Position numbers and translations under genes: made by a program
Shown here: piece by piece, positions 47,739-52,605 of the stretch
How the letters are laid out: each line of letters begins with the position of its first letter
Position numbering within the stretch: the first letter of the stretch is position 1
Source of the DNA: an uncultured Balneola sp.
Lineage (GTDB): Bacteria > Bacteroidota > Rhodothermia > Balneolales > Balneolaceae
Assembly: GCA_913058495.1 (NCBI GenBank)
Contig: CAJXQC010000001.1
Span: 60,779 to 124,778 of the forward strand
DNA length: 64,000 bases
Direction: 5' to 3'
Notes under the pieces: generated by a model
Seen by the model: only the letters and a program-made list of their open reading frames with translations
Told to the model about the DNA's origin: nothing
Database searches by the model: none

Positions 47739-48833
47739 CTATGTAATATTTTTACTGATCTGTATAATATCGGAAAGAACACCTGCAGCAGTAACTTCTT
47801 TTCCGGCCCCGGGCCCCTGAATTGCAATGGGAGAATCGGCATAGCGTTCTGAATAGATCTGGATCAGATTATCCGTTTTTCGCAGCCCTCCTAAAGGTGA
47901 ATCCGTTGGGACTTCCTTAATCCCGATCTCGATTCCTTCGGGAGTGAATTCCCCCGTGTATCGAAGACGTTTATTGTTCAATAATGCCTGCGAGTTTCTG
48001 TTTTTCCAATGTTCATCATAAAAAGAGAGATGATCTAAAAAACCATTAATCTGATAATCTATGAGTTCTTTTGGGACCAATGATTCTACTTTAATCTGAT
48101 CTCTTTCATATCTATATCCACAGGTTCTGCCCAGGATTAAAAACTTACGGGCTACATCTTCTCCGGAGAGATCATCTCGTGGATCGGGTTCTGAATAACC
48201 TTCTTTTTTCGCCGCTTTTATAATCTCACTAAAAGGAATTCCTTGTTGAAGTTGATTAAAAATGTAGGTCATAGTACCGGAAACAACGCCGGTTATTTTT
48301 GTTATGGAGTCGCCCGATTCAATCAAATTATTGATGGTGTTGATGACCGGAAGACCTGCGCCCACAGCAGTTTCATATCTGTATTGAGCCTTTCCCGGCT
48401 TTTGAAAAACTTTAAGATCCTCAAAATAACTCTGTTCAAACGTGTTGGCTCTTTTACTGGGCGTTGTAACATGGATTCCCTGAGTGAGAAGCCTCAGATA
48501 CTGACGAGCTACAACCTCACTCCCGGTTGCATCTATGAATATGAGTTCTTTCGGATAGTGAAAGAGTTTATTTGTAATATTTTCCCAATTGGTTTCTTCT
48601 TCAGAAGAATTAAGTTCTTCAAGAAGTGAATCCGGATCAGGATTCCAAATCACATTCCTGCTGTTGCAAACCCCAATAATTTTGATCTTAAACTGAGTAT
48701 TATTCAGAGCTTTGATTTGTTGAATTAGAGTGCTGCCAATTGCTCCATTCCCGGCAATAAAAACAGGAATAATTTTTTTACTCTTATAAATGGATATGTT
48801 TTTTCCGGTTATTGAATTAAGTGTGATGCTCAT
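47739..48833 (-). CDS. Homoserine dehydrogenase (stand-alone)
   Basis: GNGAIG NAD motif, YETAVGAGLP, EPDPRDDLSGEDVARK, GPGAG. Confidence 0.92.
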   Translation of the reverse strand: MSITLNSITGKNISIYKSKKIIPVFIAGNGAIGSTLIQQIKALNNTQFKIKIIGVCNSRNVIWNPDPDSLLEELNSSEEETNWENITNKLFHYPKELIFIDATGSEVVARQYLRLLTQGIHVTTPSKRANTFEQSYFEDLKVFQKPGKAQYRYETAVGAGLPVINTINNLIESGDSITKITGVVSGTMTYIFNQLQQGIPFSEIIKAAKKEGYSEPDPRDDLSGEDVARKFLILGRTCGYRYERDQIKVESLVPKELIDYQINGFLDHLSFYDEHWKNRNSQALLNNKRLRYTGEFTPEGIEIGIKEVPTDSPLGGLRKTDNLIQIYSERYADSPIAIQGPGAGKEVTAAGVLSDIIQISKNIT

Positions 48834-49872
48834 AGGGGTAATAAATAGAATGATAAAATGATGTCAGATGTTTATTGATCTGGTCGAATTCGATCAAAAA
48901 GGCATCATGACCGTAATCGGACTGGATTTCTTTGAACTCTGAATTTGGAATTAATTCGGTAAGTTCTTGTTGCTCAGCAATGGGATAGAGAATGTCTGAA
49001 TCAATACCAAGGATCAAACAAGGTATTGTCAGCGAACCTAAGACTTCAATAAAAGAGCCGCGGCTTCTGGATACATCATGGGTATCCATAGCTTTTGTCA
49101 ATGTGACGTACGAATTGGCATCAAAACGGCTACTGAGCTTTTCTCCCTGATAATCTAAATAAGATTCCACCTCAAACTGATCTTTGGTACTGTTGAAGTC
49201 TCTTCGGAACTTGTGTTCATAATTATGAGGTGAACGGTAAGTGATCATTGCAAGTGCTCTGGCAGCAGATAAACCTTTCTGTGGAGGGATTTTGGGATCA
49301 TAAAATCCATCCTGCCAATGTTCATCAGCACAAATAGCTTTTCTTTGTGCATGACTGATTCCTATTGCCCAGGGAGTATGAGATTTCCCCATAGCAAATA
49401 ATGCTAAAGATTGGATTCTAGAATCCATCAGCCCAAATTCTAAAGCAACCATGCCGCCCATTGATCCGCCAATTGCCAATTCAATGCCTTTAATGCCAAG
49501 ATGATCAAGCAGTAATTGTTGATGTTTCACAATATCCCGAATGGTAATTTTCGGAAAATCTGCCTGATAGGGTTTGTCGGTTAATGGTGAAACAGAAGTG
49601 GGTCCGGTTGATCCGTAACAACTGCCCAGATTGTTAATACATAAAACAAAATGTCTGTCAAGATCAATAAACCCGCCAGACTCAAATAGTCCGTAAAACC
49701 AATCTTTGGCATTAGAACTTCCGGTCAATGCATGACAAATCAGAATCACATTGTCCTTTTTTTCGTTGAGTGTTCCCCAACTATTCCAGGCAATGTCCAA
49801 TGCAGGAAATTCAAACCCGGATTCAGTAGTCCGGGCTTGATTTATTGTTGTGATATTTGGTTTGTTGCTCAT
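48817..49872 (-). CDS. metX: Homoserine O-acyltransferase
   Basis: HALTG, GGSMGG nucleophile elbow, GHDAFL; start placed at MSNKP. Confidence 0.92.
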   Translation of the reverse strand: MSNKPNITTINQARTTESGFEFPALDIAWNSWGTLNEKKDNVILICHALTGSSNAKDWFYGLFESGGFIDLDRHFVLCINNLGSCYGSTGPTSVSPLTDKPYQADFPKITIRDIVKHQQLLLDHLGIKGIELAIGGSMGGMVALEFGLMDSRIQSLALFAMGKSHTPWAIGISHAQRKAICADEHWQDGFYDPKIPPQKGLSAARALAMITYRSPHNYEHKFRRDFNSTKDQFEVESYLDYQGEKLSSRFDANSYVTLTKAMDTHDVSRSRGSFIEVLGSLTIPCLILGIDSDILYPIAEQQELTELIPNSEFKEIQSDYGHDAFLIEFDQINKHLTSFYHSIYYPYEHHT

Positions 49873-49894
49873 AAAAACTCCTTGTCGAAATACA

Positions 49895-51229
<1,335 letters not shown>

Positions 51230-51240
51230 TTATAATTAAT

Positions 51241-51278
51241 AAAAAAGCCCCTTTCGGGGATGAGTCCGAAAGAGGCTT
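51241..51278 (-). terminator. Terminator of the SAM riboswitch expression platform
   Basis: AAGCCTCTTTCGG...CCGAAAGGGGCTT stem followed by a T run on the minus strand. Confidence 0.8.
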
Positions 51279-51302
51279 ACAAATACAGTAGAGCTCTTCG
51301 CA

Positions 51303-51423
51303 CTCATCTTTCTCAGTACAATATTTGCACTAAGCAGGATGTAGCACCTTTTCCTGTACAAATTTGTACAGGACGGTTGCCAAGGCTTCGCAGGACCTGA
51401 TCCCTCCACCTTTCTCGATGAGA
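51303..51423 (-). ncRNA. SAM-I (S-box) riboswitch
   Basis: Minus strand CTCATCGAGAAAGGTGGAGGGA...CCTGCGAAGCCTTGGCAACC...AAGGTGCT...GAAAGATGAG. Confidence 0.92.
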
Positions 51424-51467
51424 ATGCATGATGTTAAAGAACGAATGAAACTAACAGCCAATAAAAA

Positions 51468-51500
51468 AGTCCTTCAGATCATACACTCTAAAGGACTTTG
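51468..51500 (-). terminator. Attenuator terminator upstream of the riboswitch
   Basis: Minus strand AAAGTCCTT...AAGGACTTT followed by further T residues. Confidence 0.75.
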
Positions 51501-51528
51501 AAAATTTCTTTTCTAAAATATAAAAGCC

Positions 51529-51600
51529 CTAGTGAGGTGTTTGCATATAGCAACACATACACATCATTTCCCGGGCGATATATTGGTTTGTTAATTTCAT
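51529..51600 (-). CDS. Met/Cys-rich leader peptide MKLTNQYIAREMMCMCCYMQTPH
   Basis: Manual translation of 72 nt; control tract MMCMCCYM just before the stop, followed by antiterminator/terminator-compatible sequence. Confidence 0.7.
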   Translation of the reverse strand: MKLTNQYIAREMMCMCCYMQTPH

Positions 51601-51900
51601 TGCTTCAAGATTACGAGTTAGATTTTTAGAATGCAAGGATTAATATTAGCCGGTAATCGTTGAATTATTTATCGGGGATATCTGAGGTTTAGTATTAAGG
51701 CGGGGCTAATATGTTTTCATTTTCATTTACTCGTCACAGACTTTAATATTATGATTCAATGGTACTTAGGAAGCTATAAATTTTCAAAAATATTATATGT
51801 TTTTACATGGCTCGCAAGTGTTTATAGATAATTCCGTCTTGACACTTTCCCTTTTTATTCTATTTTGTATGCGGGTTTATGGGTTGAGAAAAGAACGAAT

Positions 51901-52605
51901 ATGGGGTACAGAACAGAAACTGAAATTCTGAAGACGCAGGTTCAAAGCTTATATATTTTAGACAAGCTTTTCCGGAAAAACTTTGATTCACTTCAGGAGT
52001 TAGTGGATCTGATGCCGGGTATATTCCATGTAAACGATAAAAGTGATCTCACTATCGGTCATTTAAATAAAGCGGGAGAAGAGTGGGGGCTGCTCTCAAA
52101 AGAAGAGATCAATGACATGGGCTTCGAGTATTTTGAAAAGAATATACATCCCGACAGCCTGAAGTATGTAGCGCCTCGATTCCTTGAATTTTATGAGAAA
52201 GCCGATGATGATCAGCTTCATGCAGAATTCCAGAAAATTCGCAATCCCAGAACCGGGGAGTTCGACACTTTCTTTACCGTTTGTAAGCCCTTCAAAGAAC
52301 ATAATTTATTACTCACTTCCTCAAACCCGATTTCAGGAATAGATTCGGTAACTCGGAGAATAGAACGTATAGCCGGTGAGGAGATGTATGTGAGAAAACA
52401 TTTTGATGAATTCCGATCGCTTACCAGAAGAGAAAGGCAGGTTTTAACCAGGATAGCGCAGGGATTTAGTAATAAAGATATTTCGGGACAACTGTATATA
52501 ACTTTGGAGACGGTGAAAAGTCATCGAAAAAACATTAAGAAAAAAACGGGGATACCGACAACGGCAGGATTGGTTCAATTTGCAATAGCGTTCGAGCTGA
52601 TCTGA
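51901..52605 (+). CDS. LuxR-family HTH regulator with PAS-like N-terminal domain
   Basis: LTRRERQVL...GFSNKDIS...TVKSHRKNIKKK. Confidence 0.9.
   Translation: MGYRTETEILKTQVQSLYILDKLFRKNFDSLQELVDLMPGIFHVNDKSDLTIGHLNKAGEEWGLLSKEEINDMGFEYFEKNIHPDSLKYVAPRFLEFYEKADDDQLHAEFQKIRNPRTGEFDTFFTVCKPFKEHNLLLTSSNPISGIDSVTRRIERIAGEEMYVRKHFDEFRSLTRRERQVLTRIAQGFSNKDISGQLYITLETVKSHRKNIKKKTGIPTTAGLVQFAIAFELI

What the first reader, a model, noticed from the sequence alone, without database searches (positions are those of the whole stretch)
51241..51600. Stacked Met/Cys leader-peptide attenuator and SAM-I riboswitch controlling metY-metX-hom
Seen: minus-strand 23-aa ORF MKLTNQYIAREMMCMCCYMQTPH (7 Met/Cys in an 8-codon tract). 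AGGGCTTT, overlapping its stop codon, can pair with the 5' arm (AAAGTCCT) of the terminator at 51468-51500. A SAM-I aptamer with its own terminator follows. Known: ribosome-stalling attenuation and SAM-I termination are each classic. Inference: a two-input gate sensing charged tRNA-Met/Cys and SAM on one transcript, which I do not recall being described as a tandem.
Basis: partly seen in the sequence, partly recalled or inferred. Interest (0 to 1): 0.7.

Follow-up and report, generated by a model that had tools for sequence, protein, structure and literature searches.

The report
Met/Cys leader peptide before SAM riboswitch
In front of the methionine-pathway genes metY-metX-hom of this Balneola bacterium, one mRNA leader carries a tiny gene packed with methionine and cysteine codons plus its own stop signal, followed by a SAM-sensing riboswitch. 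The operon is therefore probably switched on only when both charged Met/Cys-tRNA and SAM are scarce, and this design is conserved across the order Balneolales and not found in the papers searched.

Summary
The minus-strand ORF at 51600-51529 encodes MKLTNQYIAREMMCMCCYMQTPH. It is followed by terminator T1 (51499-51466), a canonical SAM-I aptamer (51424-51301, 75.5 bits), a second terminator T2 (51278-45) and then metY-metX-hom.

- All 22 Balneola genomes read keep an in-frame Met/Cys tract whose order is permuted (MMCMCC, MCMMCC, MCMCMC, MCCMCMC).
- 57 of about 74 metY-type SAM-I loci across all seven sampled Balneolales families carry such a uORF. None of 21 metH-type SAM-I loci in the same family do, and only 1 (spurious) of 81 SAM-I loci outside the order does.
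- A segment at the stop codon (region 2, GGGC) can pair either with an upstream segment (region 1) or with the 5' arm of T1. Region 2 and its own T1 arm pair better than arms from other genera.
- A Bacteroidota-type promoter ends about 5 nt before the AUG, which implies a leaderless uORF.
- A covarying long-range helix joins the start of the ORF to the sequence just after T1, which argues for one continuous transcript.

[quoted passage not shown] No Met-codon leader peptide, and no leader-peptide/riboswitch tandem for SAM, was found in the literature searched. This scan had already noted the same element in other Balneolaceae genomes.

The parts
51606..51636 (-). Promoter. The -33 box is TTGCA (51636-51632) and the -7 box is TAATCTTG (51613-51606). 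The -7 box ends 5 nt before the leader AUG.
   Evidence: TTG and TAAnnTT are invariant in 20 Balneola sequences. The same TTG(CA)-N16-22-TAnn(n)TT-N3-8-ATG geometry occurs at 33 of 57 leaders in other genera, against 0.65% of control ATGs. The start site itself was not measured.
51529..51600 (-). Leader ORF of 23 codons plus TAG: MKLTNQYIAREMMCMCCYMQTPH.
   Evidence: It is conserved in frame in 22 of 22 Balneola loci read.
51544..51567 (-). Regulatory Met/Cys codon tract (codons 12-19, MMCMCCYM).
   Evidence: The composition is conserved while the order is permuted among species, and UGU and UGC alternate. It is unique among intergenic ORFs of the genome.
51571..51576 (-). Region 1 (GCCCGG). 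It pairs with region 2 when no ribosome covers it, acting as an anti-antiterminator.
   Evidence: Per-sequence folds show GCCC/GGGC, GUCCUC/GAGGGC, GUCCUCAGA/UCUGGGGAC, CAGUC/GGCUG and CAGCC/GGCUG. Column counts are weak, at 68-71% paired.
51523..51540 (-). Region 2, the 5' strand of the antiterminator. The distal part is ACACCUC (51540-51534). The proximal part is AGGGCUUU (51530-51523), which overlaps the stop codon.
   Evidence: The duplex with the T1 5' arm and loop is -14.9 to -15.7 kcal/mol, against about -6.5 for shuffles. Order-wide, the 3' end of region 2 lies -7 to +17 nt from the stop codon.
51460..51499 (-). Terminator T1. The 5' arm is AAAGUCCUUUAGA (51499-51487), the loop is 51486-51479, the 3' arm is UCUGAAGGACUUU (51478-51466), and the U tract runs to 51460.
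   Evidence: 96% of cells are paired, with compensatory U-A to C-G and A-U to U-A changes.
51581..51600 (-). 5' strand of the long-range helix P0: AUGAAAUUAACA (51600-51589) and CCAAUA (51586-51581). It includes the start codon.
   Evidence: It appears in the minimum-free-energy fold and in RNAalifold. 5 of its 18 pairs change on both sides.
51445..51463 (-). 3' strand of P0: UAUUGG (51463-51458) and UGUUAGUUUCAU (51456-51445). It lies just 3' of the T1 U tract.
51301..51424 (-). SAM-I riboswitch aptamer.
   Evidence: RF00162, 75.5 bits, model positions 1-108. It is the only SAM-I in this genome.
51241..51308 (-). SAM-I expression platform. The antiterminator joins the P1 3' strand GAUGAGU (51308-51302) to ACUCAUC (51265-51259). 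Terminator T2 lies at 51278-51245, with a U tract to 51241.
   Evidence: The antiterminator folds at -20.8 and T2 at -21.3 kcal/mol. T2 is found by the scan.
47739..51211 (-). The regulated operon: metY (51211-49895), metX (49908-48817) and hom (48833-47739).
   Evidence: NCBIfam matches. Overlapping stop and start codons are visible in the ORF list.

Best explanation
I read this as a ribosome-mediated (trp-type) transcription attenuator keyed to methionine and cysteine codons, placed in series with a standard SAM-I riboswitch on the leader of metY-metX-hom.

Proposed sequence of events:
1. Transcription starts at or within a few nucleotides of the leader AUG, so the uORF is leaderless or nearly so.
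2. If Met-tRNA and Cys-tRNA are plentiful, the ribosome runs to the stop codon and covers region 2. If nothing is translated, region 1 pairs with region 2. In both cases the T1 hairpin forms and transcription ends at about 51460.
3. If the ribosome stalls in the MMCMCC..M tract, it covers region 1 and leaves region 2 free. Region 2 then pairs with the 5' arm and loop of T1, and the polymerase reads through.
4. The read-through transcript meets the SAM-I riboswitch. When SAM is bound, T2 forms. When SAM is absent, the P1 3' strand forms the antiterminator and metY-metX-hom is transcribed.

The output is therefore (shortage of charged Met/Cys-tRNA) AND NOT (SAM).

After read-through, helix P0 pairs the AUG and the first 7 codons with the sequence just 3' of T1. 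This probably closes off the leader domain and blocks further initiation on the leaderless AUG.

What is shown: the sequence elements, their conservation, the alternative pairings, the specific association with metY, and the promoter geometry. What is inferred: translation of the uORF, stalling, the termination outcomes, the gate logic and the role of P0.
For: **Conservation of the uORF**
- It is present in 21 of 22 Balneola genomes by DNA search.
- All 22 loci read keep MKL..Q.. followed by a Met/Cys tract with permuted order.
- In 38 representative leaders, 258 of 804 non-start codons are Met or Cys.

**Specific association with metY**
- 57 of about 74 metY-type SAM-I loci carry the uORF, spread over all 7 sampled Balneolales families.
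- 0 of 21 metH-type SAM-I loci in the same family carry it.
- Only 1 (spurious) of 81 SAM-I loci from other orders and classes carries it.

**Terminator and antiterminator**
- T1 is present.
- In 19 distinct Balneola leaders the 2:3 duplex is -9.9 to -22.3 kcal/mol, against about -6 to -9 for shuffles.
- Across 39 loci of many genera, region 2 pairs better with its own T1 arm than with arms of other genera: -14.0 against -10.6 kcal/mol, Mann-Whitney p = 1e-10. Examples of matching pairs are GAGAGCC/GGCUCUC, GGGUUCG/CGAACCC and CAGAGGGU/GCCCUCUG.

**Geometry**
- The 3' end of region 2 lies -7 to +17 nt (median +7.5) from the stop codon, mostly within the reach of a terminating ribosome.
- Region 1 lies 4-9 nt 5' of the codon tract.

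**One transcript**
- The promoter motif abuts the AUG.
- P0 and T1 covary: 89% of cells are paired against 36-60% for slid controls, and the covariation score is 0.19 against at most 0.074.

**The SAM-I part is canonical**.

**The lineage uses the same design elsewhere**: a WWW leader with the same promoter geometry and a terminator precedes trpE in this genome.
Against:
- Column-wise covariation of the antiterminator on the MAFFT alignment is inconclusive: 61% paired, against 64% for the +1 slide. Support for helix 2:3 therefore rests on per-sequence duplex energies.
- Region 1:2 is only 68-71% paired by columns.
- The cognate versus non-cognate test uses related sequences, so its p value is overstated.
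- Leaderless translation has not been shown in Balneolales.
- One genus (g8) has the uORF but no T1. Some lineages (g9, g22, g37) lack the uORF altogether.
- This genome shows no MetH or MetE. What the Met codons report about the operon's end product here is therefore unclear.
Confidence: 0.8

Rival explanations
1. The mini-ORF and T1 form an independent small gene or sRNA with its own terminator, and the SAM riboswitch and operon are transcribed from a separate promoter. On this reading there is no tandem logic.
For: T1 is a strong terminator (-17.4 kcal/mol). The transcription start was not measured.
Against: Only 41 nt separate the T1 U tract from aptamer P1, and I saw no -33/-7 motif there. 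In relatives without the uORF, the promoter sits directly 5' of the aptamer instead (L062-L065). Helix P0 pairs sequence on both sides of T1 and covaries, which requires read-through RNA. The uORF is found only at metY-type SAM-I loci.
Confidence: 0.05
2. The uORF is translated and regulatory, but it acts mainly by another route than T1 antitermination. Candidates are ribosome-dependent control of Rho loading, control of SAM aptamer folding, or control of mRNA stability through the 5' helix.
For: Genus g8 keeps a Met/Cys uORF upstream of SAM-I without any T1. Its longer ORF ends in a helix that pairs the 5' end with the segment just 5' of GUUCUUU. P0 has no role in the classical model.
Against: In Balneola, and in all but one of the other sampled genera with a leader, a T1 with a matching region 2 is present and co-varies with it.
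Confidence: 0.1
3. The peptide itself is the functional product. It could be a Cys/Met-rich metal- or redox-binding peptide, a precursor of a modified peptide, or a nascent arrest peptide that senses free Met or SAM. On this reading codon supply is not what is sensed.
For: The N-terminus MKL(T)xQ is conserved within the genus.
Against: The conserved N-terminal codons coincide with RNA helix P0 and change in a compensatory way. The order of Met and Cys is permuted, and length and flanks vary freely between genera. No modification or export genes accompany it. The stop codon always tracks region 2.
Confidence: 0.04

Closest known systems
Classical leader-peptide transcription attenuators (trpL, hisL, leuL, thrL, pheL, ilv leaders of Proteobacteria). 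Established knowledge; reviewed in PMC2965389.
   Same: A short ORF with clustered codons for the pathway's amino acid, alternative pairings 1:2, 2:3 and 3:4, and an intrinsic terminator before the structural genes.
   Different: The regulatory codons are Met plus Cys, and no Met-codon leader was found in the papers searched. The uORF appears leaderless behind a Bacteroidota-type -33/-7 promoter. An extra helix (P0) encloses the whole attenuator. A riboswitch follows on the same leader.
[quoted passage not shown] 2022, PMC9481103: 2 and 7 examples).
   Same: One leader senses tRNA-Met charging and SAM in series, each sensor with its own terminator. The logic is 'A AND NOT B'.
   Different: Here the tRNA sensor is a translating ribosome on a uORF, not a T-box RNA. 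No T-box match was found even at E up to 10. It also reads Cys codons. It occurs in Balneolales (Bacteroidota). That survey does not mention leader peptides or uORFs.
SAM-I/AdoCbl tandem riboswitch, a NOR gate (listed in PMC9481103 with 8 examples).
   Same: Two independent termination switches in series upstream of a methionine gene, one of them SAM-I.
   Different: In that system the second input is a metabolite aptamer, not ribosome stalling.
Cysteine-codon leader ORFs: mycobacterial leaderless polycysteine sORFs (bioRxiv 10.1101/834739), Actinobacteria cys/cbs leaders (PMC1262725), the Rhodobacterales cysS uORFC-8-2 motif (PMC8632094) and the Deinococcus deserti cysS leader (PMC4007540).
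   Same: Runs of Cys codons in a small ORF, often leaderless, report cysteine supply to downstream sulfur-metabolism or cysS genes.
   Different: Those carry Cys only. The mycobacterial ones act on translation by exposing the ribosome-binding site and have no terminator. None is combined with a SAM riboswitch, and none controls metY.
Salmonella mgtA leader, which combines a Mg2+-sensing leader RNA with the proline-codon uORF mgtL (own knowledge), and the mgtCBR tandem attenuators (PMC3641672).
   Same: These are precedents for one leader that combines an RNA sensor with uORF translation to integrate two signals.
   Different: There the uORF lies inside the sensing RNA and acts through Rho-dependent termination. 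The signals (Mg2+, proline, ATP) are unrelated to each other, whereas Met, Cys and SAM belong to one pathway.

Membership tests
Ribosome-mediated leader-peptide transcription attenuator | A short ORF with clustered codons for the amino acid(s) linked to the regulated operon. | tested here: met
   7 of 8 codons are Met or Cys. The tract is conserved in frame across the order. It is unique among the intergenic ORFs of the genome.
Ribosome-mediated leader-peptide transcription attenuator | An intrinsic terminator between the leader ORF and the downstream genes. | tested here: met
   T1 lies at 51499-51466 and is followed by a U tract. It is present in all sampled genera with a leader except g8.
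Ribosome-mediated leader-peptide transcription attenuator | An antiterminator that excludes the terminator, with its 5' strand placed so that ribosome position decides its availability. | tested here: met
   Per-sequence duplexes are stronger than shuffles. Cognate pairs are stronger than non-cognate pairs. Region 2 sits at the stop codon. Column-wise covariation is inconclusive.
Ribosome-mediated leader-peptide transcription attenuator | An upstream segment (region 1) that sequesters region 2 when no ribosome is stalled. | tested here: inconclusive
   Per-sequence folds show compensatory variants, but column counts are only 68-71% paired. It was not tested order-wide.
Ribosome-mediated leader-peptide transcription attenuator | The ORF is translated, and stalling at the regulatory codons raises read-through. 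| not testable with these tools
SAM-I riboswitch (RF00162, S box) | The aptamer matches the covariance model above the gathering score. | tested here: met
   75.5 bits against 44.4, full length 1-108.
SAM-I riboswitch (RF00162, S box) | An expression platform in which the P1 3' strand alternates between the aptamer and an antiterminator that competes with a terminator. | tested here: met
   The antiterminator folds at -20.8 and T2 at -21.3 kcal/mol. T2 was found by the scan.
SAM-I riboswitch (RF00162, S box) | It binds SAM. | not testable with these tools
   This needs in-line probing or ITC.
Tandem two-input RNA gate (as defined in PMC9481103) | Two sensors, each with its own expression platform, on one 5' leader transcript. 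| tested here: inconclusive
   Two terminators lie in series. The promoter is seen only 5' of the uORF. Helix P0 spans T1. The transcript itself was not observed.
T-box riboswitch | A match to the T-box model, with a specifier loop and T-box sequence. | tested here: not met
   No T-box match between 51200 and 51900, even at E up to 10.
Mycobacterial-type leaderless polycysteine sORF attenuator | The transcript begins at the sORF start codon. | tested here: inconclusive
   The -7 box ends 5 nt before the AUG, and this geometry is conserved. No start-site data are available.
Mycobacterial-type leaderless polycysteine sORF attenuator | [quoted passage not shown] | tested here: not met
   Here an intrinsic terminator follows the sORF, and the next element is a riboswitch rather than a gene.

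The most novel reading that the evidence does not exclude
This would be an undescribed, order-wide class of ribosome-mediated attenuator that reads methionine and cysteine codons from a leaderless uORF. It is hard-wired in series with SAM-I, so that metY expression requires both a shortage of charged Met/Cys-tRNA and low SAM. A covarying closing helix (P0) sequesters the leaderless AUG once T1 has been passed, which would limit sensing to the ribosome or ribosomes loaded during transcription.
Probability: 0.55. Interest if true: 0.7.

Novelty: new variant of a known kind. Interest (0 to 1): 0.6.

Why it matters
Leader-peptide attenuation is a textbook mechanism, yet methionine is missing from its list of known amino acids. 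Methionine control is normally attributed to SAM riboswitches, T-boxes or repressors.

This case shows a lineage that added a ribosome-based sensor of Met/Cys-tRNA in front of an ancestral SAM-I riboswitch. Sister orders have SAM-I directly before metY, with no uORF. The result is a natural two-input gate made of two different kinds of sensor: a translating ribosome and a metabolite aptamer.

It extends the catalogue of tandem RNA logic beyond riboswitch and T-box pairs. It adds evidence that leaderless uORFs are used as amino-acid sensors outside Actinobacteria and Deinococcus.

It also offers a compact system for study, about 390 nt from the promoter to the T2 U tract. It could be used to ask how co-transcriptional folding keeps two switches independent.

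It has practical value for annotation too, because these uORFs are invisible to gene callers and to Rfam.

Tried and rejected
- **Rfam at a permissive threshold over 51200-51900.** Only SAM-I is credible. No leader, T-box or sRNA family fits the uORF/T1 part.
- **Column-wise covariation of the antiterminator on the MAFFT alignment A2.** This was inconclusive because region 2 shifts register between clades. I relied on per-sequence duplexes instead.
- **A covariance model of the leader.** I did not build one. The SAM-I model was used as the anchor to collect loci instead.
- **A relaxed genome-wide scan for other single-amino-acid leaders.** It returned mostly out-of-frame noise. Only the strict scan with the promoter filter gave a credible hit, the Trp leader.
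- **A search for the reverse arrangement, a Met/Cys uORF downstream of the aptamer.** It appeared in 1 of 174 fetched loci, so it is not a feature of this order.
- **The independent small gene, functional peptide and Rho/stability readings.** These were considered and given low weight (see the rival explanations).
- **Literature.** Seven searches and seven papers read found no description of a Met/Cys leader peptide or of a leader-peptide/SAM riboswitch tandem. Subscription journals are not covered.

Full report
**1. What is in the sequence**

On the minus strand the 653-nt gap between a divergent LuxR-type regulator gene (51865-52605) and metY contains the following elements, in order.
- A promoter-like pair: TTGCA (51636-51632) and TAATCTTG (51613-51606).
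- A 23-codon ORF (51600-51529) encoding MKLTNQYIAREMMCMCCYMQTPH.
- A 13-bp hairpin followed by a U tract, T1 (51499-51466).
- A full-length SAM-I aptamer (51424-51301; RF00162, 75.5 bits against a gathering score of 44.4).
- A second hairpin followed by a U tract, T2 (51278-51245).
- metY (51211), overlapping metX, overlapping hom.

The terminator scan finds exactly T1 and T2 in this region, where shuffled sequence gives 0.4 sites. At a permissive Rfam threshold nothing but SAM-I is credible here.

**2. Is the Met/Cys ORF more than chance?**

In all six frames of the organism's 3.4-Mb genome, only five windows have at least 6 Met/Cys in 8 codons. At least three of the other four lie inside longer reading frames, so this is the only one found as a short intergenic ORF.

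The organism is a Balneola species (Balneolaceae, Balneolales), according to the record titles of relatives carrying the same T1 sequence.

**3. Conservation within the genus**

The 201-nt leader is found in 21 of 22 Balneola genomes at 71-98% identity. Every one of the 22 loci read keeps an ATG-started ORF of 21-27 codons beginning MKL. Each has a Met/Cys tract whose order differs between species: MMCMCC..M, MCMMCK.M, MMCMMCC, MCMCMC, MCCMCMC, MCSMCMC. UGU and UGC are used interchangeably, while the remaining residues drift. This is the pattern expected when selection acts on codon identity rather than on a peptide sequence.

**4. The switch**

- *Antiterminator.* Folding each distinct Balneola leader without the T1 3' arm gives a two-part antiterminator. 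The proximal part pairs (A/G)GGG(C/A)U, at the stop codon, with AGUCCU of the T1 5' arm. The distal part pairs CACU(U)C with GAGUG of the T1 loop, which explains why the loop is conserved. Energies are -9.9 to -22.3 kcal/mol, against about -6 to -9 for shuffled region 2. For the window itself the value is -15.7 kcal/mol.
- *Region 1.* Folding the ORF alone shows that region 2 can instead pair with a segment just 5' of the codon tract. Variants that look compensatory are GCCC/GGGC, GUCCUC/GAGGGC, GUCCUCAGA/UCUGGGGAC, CAGUC/GGCUG and CAGCC/GGCUG.
- *Design.* The layout is therefore the classical 1:2 / 2:3 / 3:4 design. A ribosome stalled on codons 12-19 covers region 1 (4-9 nt upstream) and frees region 2. 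A ribosome at the stop codon covers region 2.
- *Column-based counts on a MAFFT alignment of Balneola plus four sister genera (A2).* These support T1 (96% paired; U-A to C-G in 9 sequences, A-U to U-A in 8). They also support the structure as a whole: 89% paired against 36-60% for slid controls, and a covariation score of 0.19 against at most 0.074. They are only weak for 1:2 (68-71% paired). They are inconclusive for 2:3, at 61% against 64% for a +1 slide, because MAFFT shifts the register of region 2 between clades.

**5. An unexpected extra helix**

The minimum-free-energy fold and RNAalifold both pair the start codon and first codons (AUGAAAUUAACA..CCAAUA) with UAUUGG.C.UGUUAGUUUCAU, which lies immediately 3' of the T1 U tract. 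Five of its 18 pairs change on both sides, for example U-A to A-U to C-G and C-G to U-A.

This helix, P0, can exist only in RNA that has read through T1. It is therefore independent evidence that the uORF and the riboswitch share a transcript. Its function is inferred only. It may seal off the leader domain and hide the AUG after the decision has been made.

**6. Promoter**

TTG and TAAnnTT are invariant in Balneola, and the -7 box ends 5 nt before the ATG. In other genera the motif TTG-N16-22-TAnn(n)TT-N3-8 precedes an in-frame leader ATG in 33 of 57 loci, against 0.65% of control ATGs in the same loci. Relatives without the uORF carry a TAtaTTTG box directly upstream of the aptamer instead. 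I saw no such motif in the 41 nt between T1 and the aptamer here. The uORF is therefore probably leaderless or nearly so, but the start site was not measured.

**7. Distribution**

Using SAM-I as an anchor, I fetched 174 SAM-I loci and scanned the region upstream of the aptamer. The uORF criterion was at least 4 Met/Cys in 8 codons, with the ATG 100-260 nt 5' of the aptamer.

| Group of SAM-I loci | Loci with a Met/Cys uORF |
|---|---|
| Balneolales, followed by metY, or by a CoA_binding_2 gene (which was followed by metY in the four such loci checked) | 57 of about 74, across all seven sampled families |
| Balneolaceae, upstream of a metH-like gene | 0 of 21 |
| Other orders of the same class | 1 of 48 (a GC-rich chance ORF) |
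| Other classes of the phylum, including at least 12 SAM-I-metY loci | 0 of 33 |

Some lineages have weaker, Cys-only versions or none at all. The uORF was therefore added in front of an ancestral SAM-I-metY arrangement in Balneolales.

Across 39 representative leaders, region 2 sits at the stop codon: its 3' end lies -7 to +17 nt from the stop, median +7.5. Region 2 also pairs better with its own T1 arm than with arms from other genera: -14.0 against -10.6 kcal/mol, p = 1e-10. The p value is overstated because the sequences are related. Matching examples are GAGAGCC/GGCUCUC, GGGUUCG/CGAACCC and CGAAGGGU/ACCCUUCG.

One genus (g8) has the uORF but no T1.

**8. The SAM-I half**

This half is ordinary. 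The P1 3' strand GAUGAGU and the following bases pair with the T2 5' arm and loop (ACUCAUC) at -20.8 kcal/mol, and T2 itself folds at -21.3 kcal/mol. It is the only SAM-I element in this genome.

**9. Physiology**

MetY is an O-acetylhomoserine/O-acetylserine sulfhydrylase-type enzyme that makes homocysteine. The genome also encodes the following:
- a cysE-like and cysK-like gene pair;
- a protein resembling the catalytic domain of cystathionine beta-synthase;
- three further Cys/Met-metabolism PLP enzymes;
- metK.

Homocysteine can therefore plausibly feed cysteine as well, which would explain a joint Met/Cys sensor.

No MetH, MetE, PF02574 or PF01717 match was found in this 99.4%-complete genome. 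What the Met codons report in this strain is therefore an open point.

A WWW leader with the same promoter geometry and a terminator precedes trpE. This shows that the lineage uses this style of attenuator elsewhere.

**10. Comparison with what is known**

- Cys-codon leaders are known in mycobacteria (10.1101/834739), other Actinobacteria (PMC1262725), Rhodobacterales cysS (PMC8632094) and Deinococcus (PMC4007540).
- Tandem RNA gates are catalogued in PMC9481103. [quoted passage not shown] The survey does not mention leader peptides or uORFs.
- I found no paper that describes a Met or Met/Cys leader peptide, or a leader-peptide/SAM riboswitch tandem. The library does not include most subscription journals.

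I class this as a new variant of known kinds.

**11. Earlier notes of this scan**

The scan's own notes record the same tandem in other Balneolaceae genomes, and Met/Cys leaders in unrelated phyla.

**12. Limits**

Translation, stalling, termination efficiencies, gate behaviour and the role of P0 are all inferences.

Noticed in passing
Own genome contig C9, about 73010-73215 (outside the window): A leaderless-type Trp leader, MLIKQHNNTWWWPNAYTGSGIVA, lies immediately upstream of trpE. It has the same TTGC-N19-TAtatTTT-N5-ATG promoter geometry and a terminator.
   Followed up: partly
Whole own genome (G000): No MetH, MetE, S-methyl_trans (PF02574) or Meth_synt_2 (PF01717) match was found in a 99.4%-complete assembly. 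There was also no tblastn hit with relatives' MetH N-terminus. About half of Balneola species have a second SAM-I upstream of a metH-like gene; this strain has only one SAM-I. It may be a methionine auxotroph that uses MetY for homocysteine and cysteine.
   Followed up: partly
window 51436-51442 (-) and 51293-51299 (-): GUUCUUU lies about 12-25 nt 5' of the SAM-I aptamer in nearly all the Balneolales loci whose upstream sequence I read, including those without the uORF. It is complementary to GAAGAGC just 3' of P1, so it may be a P1 extension or part of the platform.
   Followed up: no
Loci L058, L060, L061 (genus g8, family f6): A variant leader. A 31-35-codon Met/Cys uORF lies upstream of SAM-I with no terminator T1. 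Its stop lies within or just 5' of a long helix that pairs the 5' end of the RNA with the segment just before GUUCUUU. This suggests a different read-out of the same sensor.
   Followed up: no
Locus L144 (another order of the class, family f13): A small ORF ending ...HPMCCCCSSRC starts about 130 nt downstream of a SAM-I aptamer. This was the only such case among 174 loci. It has the opposite order of sensors and resembles earlier scan notes on SAM-I followed by poly-Cys leaders.
   Followed up: no
Loci L043-L053, L057-L060 and others: In many Balneolales the SAM-I-controlled transcription unit begins with a gene of about 160 aa for a CoA_binding_2 protein (PF13380, 132 bits for the one example scanned). 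In the four such loci I checked, metY follows it. Its role in the pathway is unknown.
   Followed up: partly
Loci L090, L092, L098 (genera g18, g23): In these genera the 5' end of the leader (AUGAAAAAU..) pairs with a segment located before T1 rather than after it. Sequestration of the start region seems conserved, but its partner moves.
   Followed up: no
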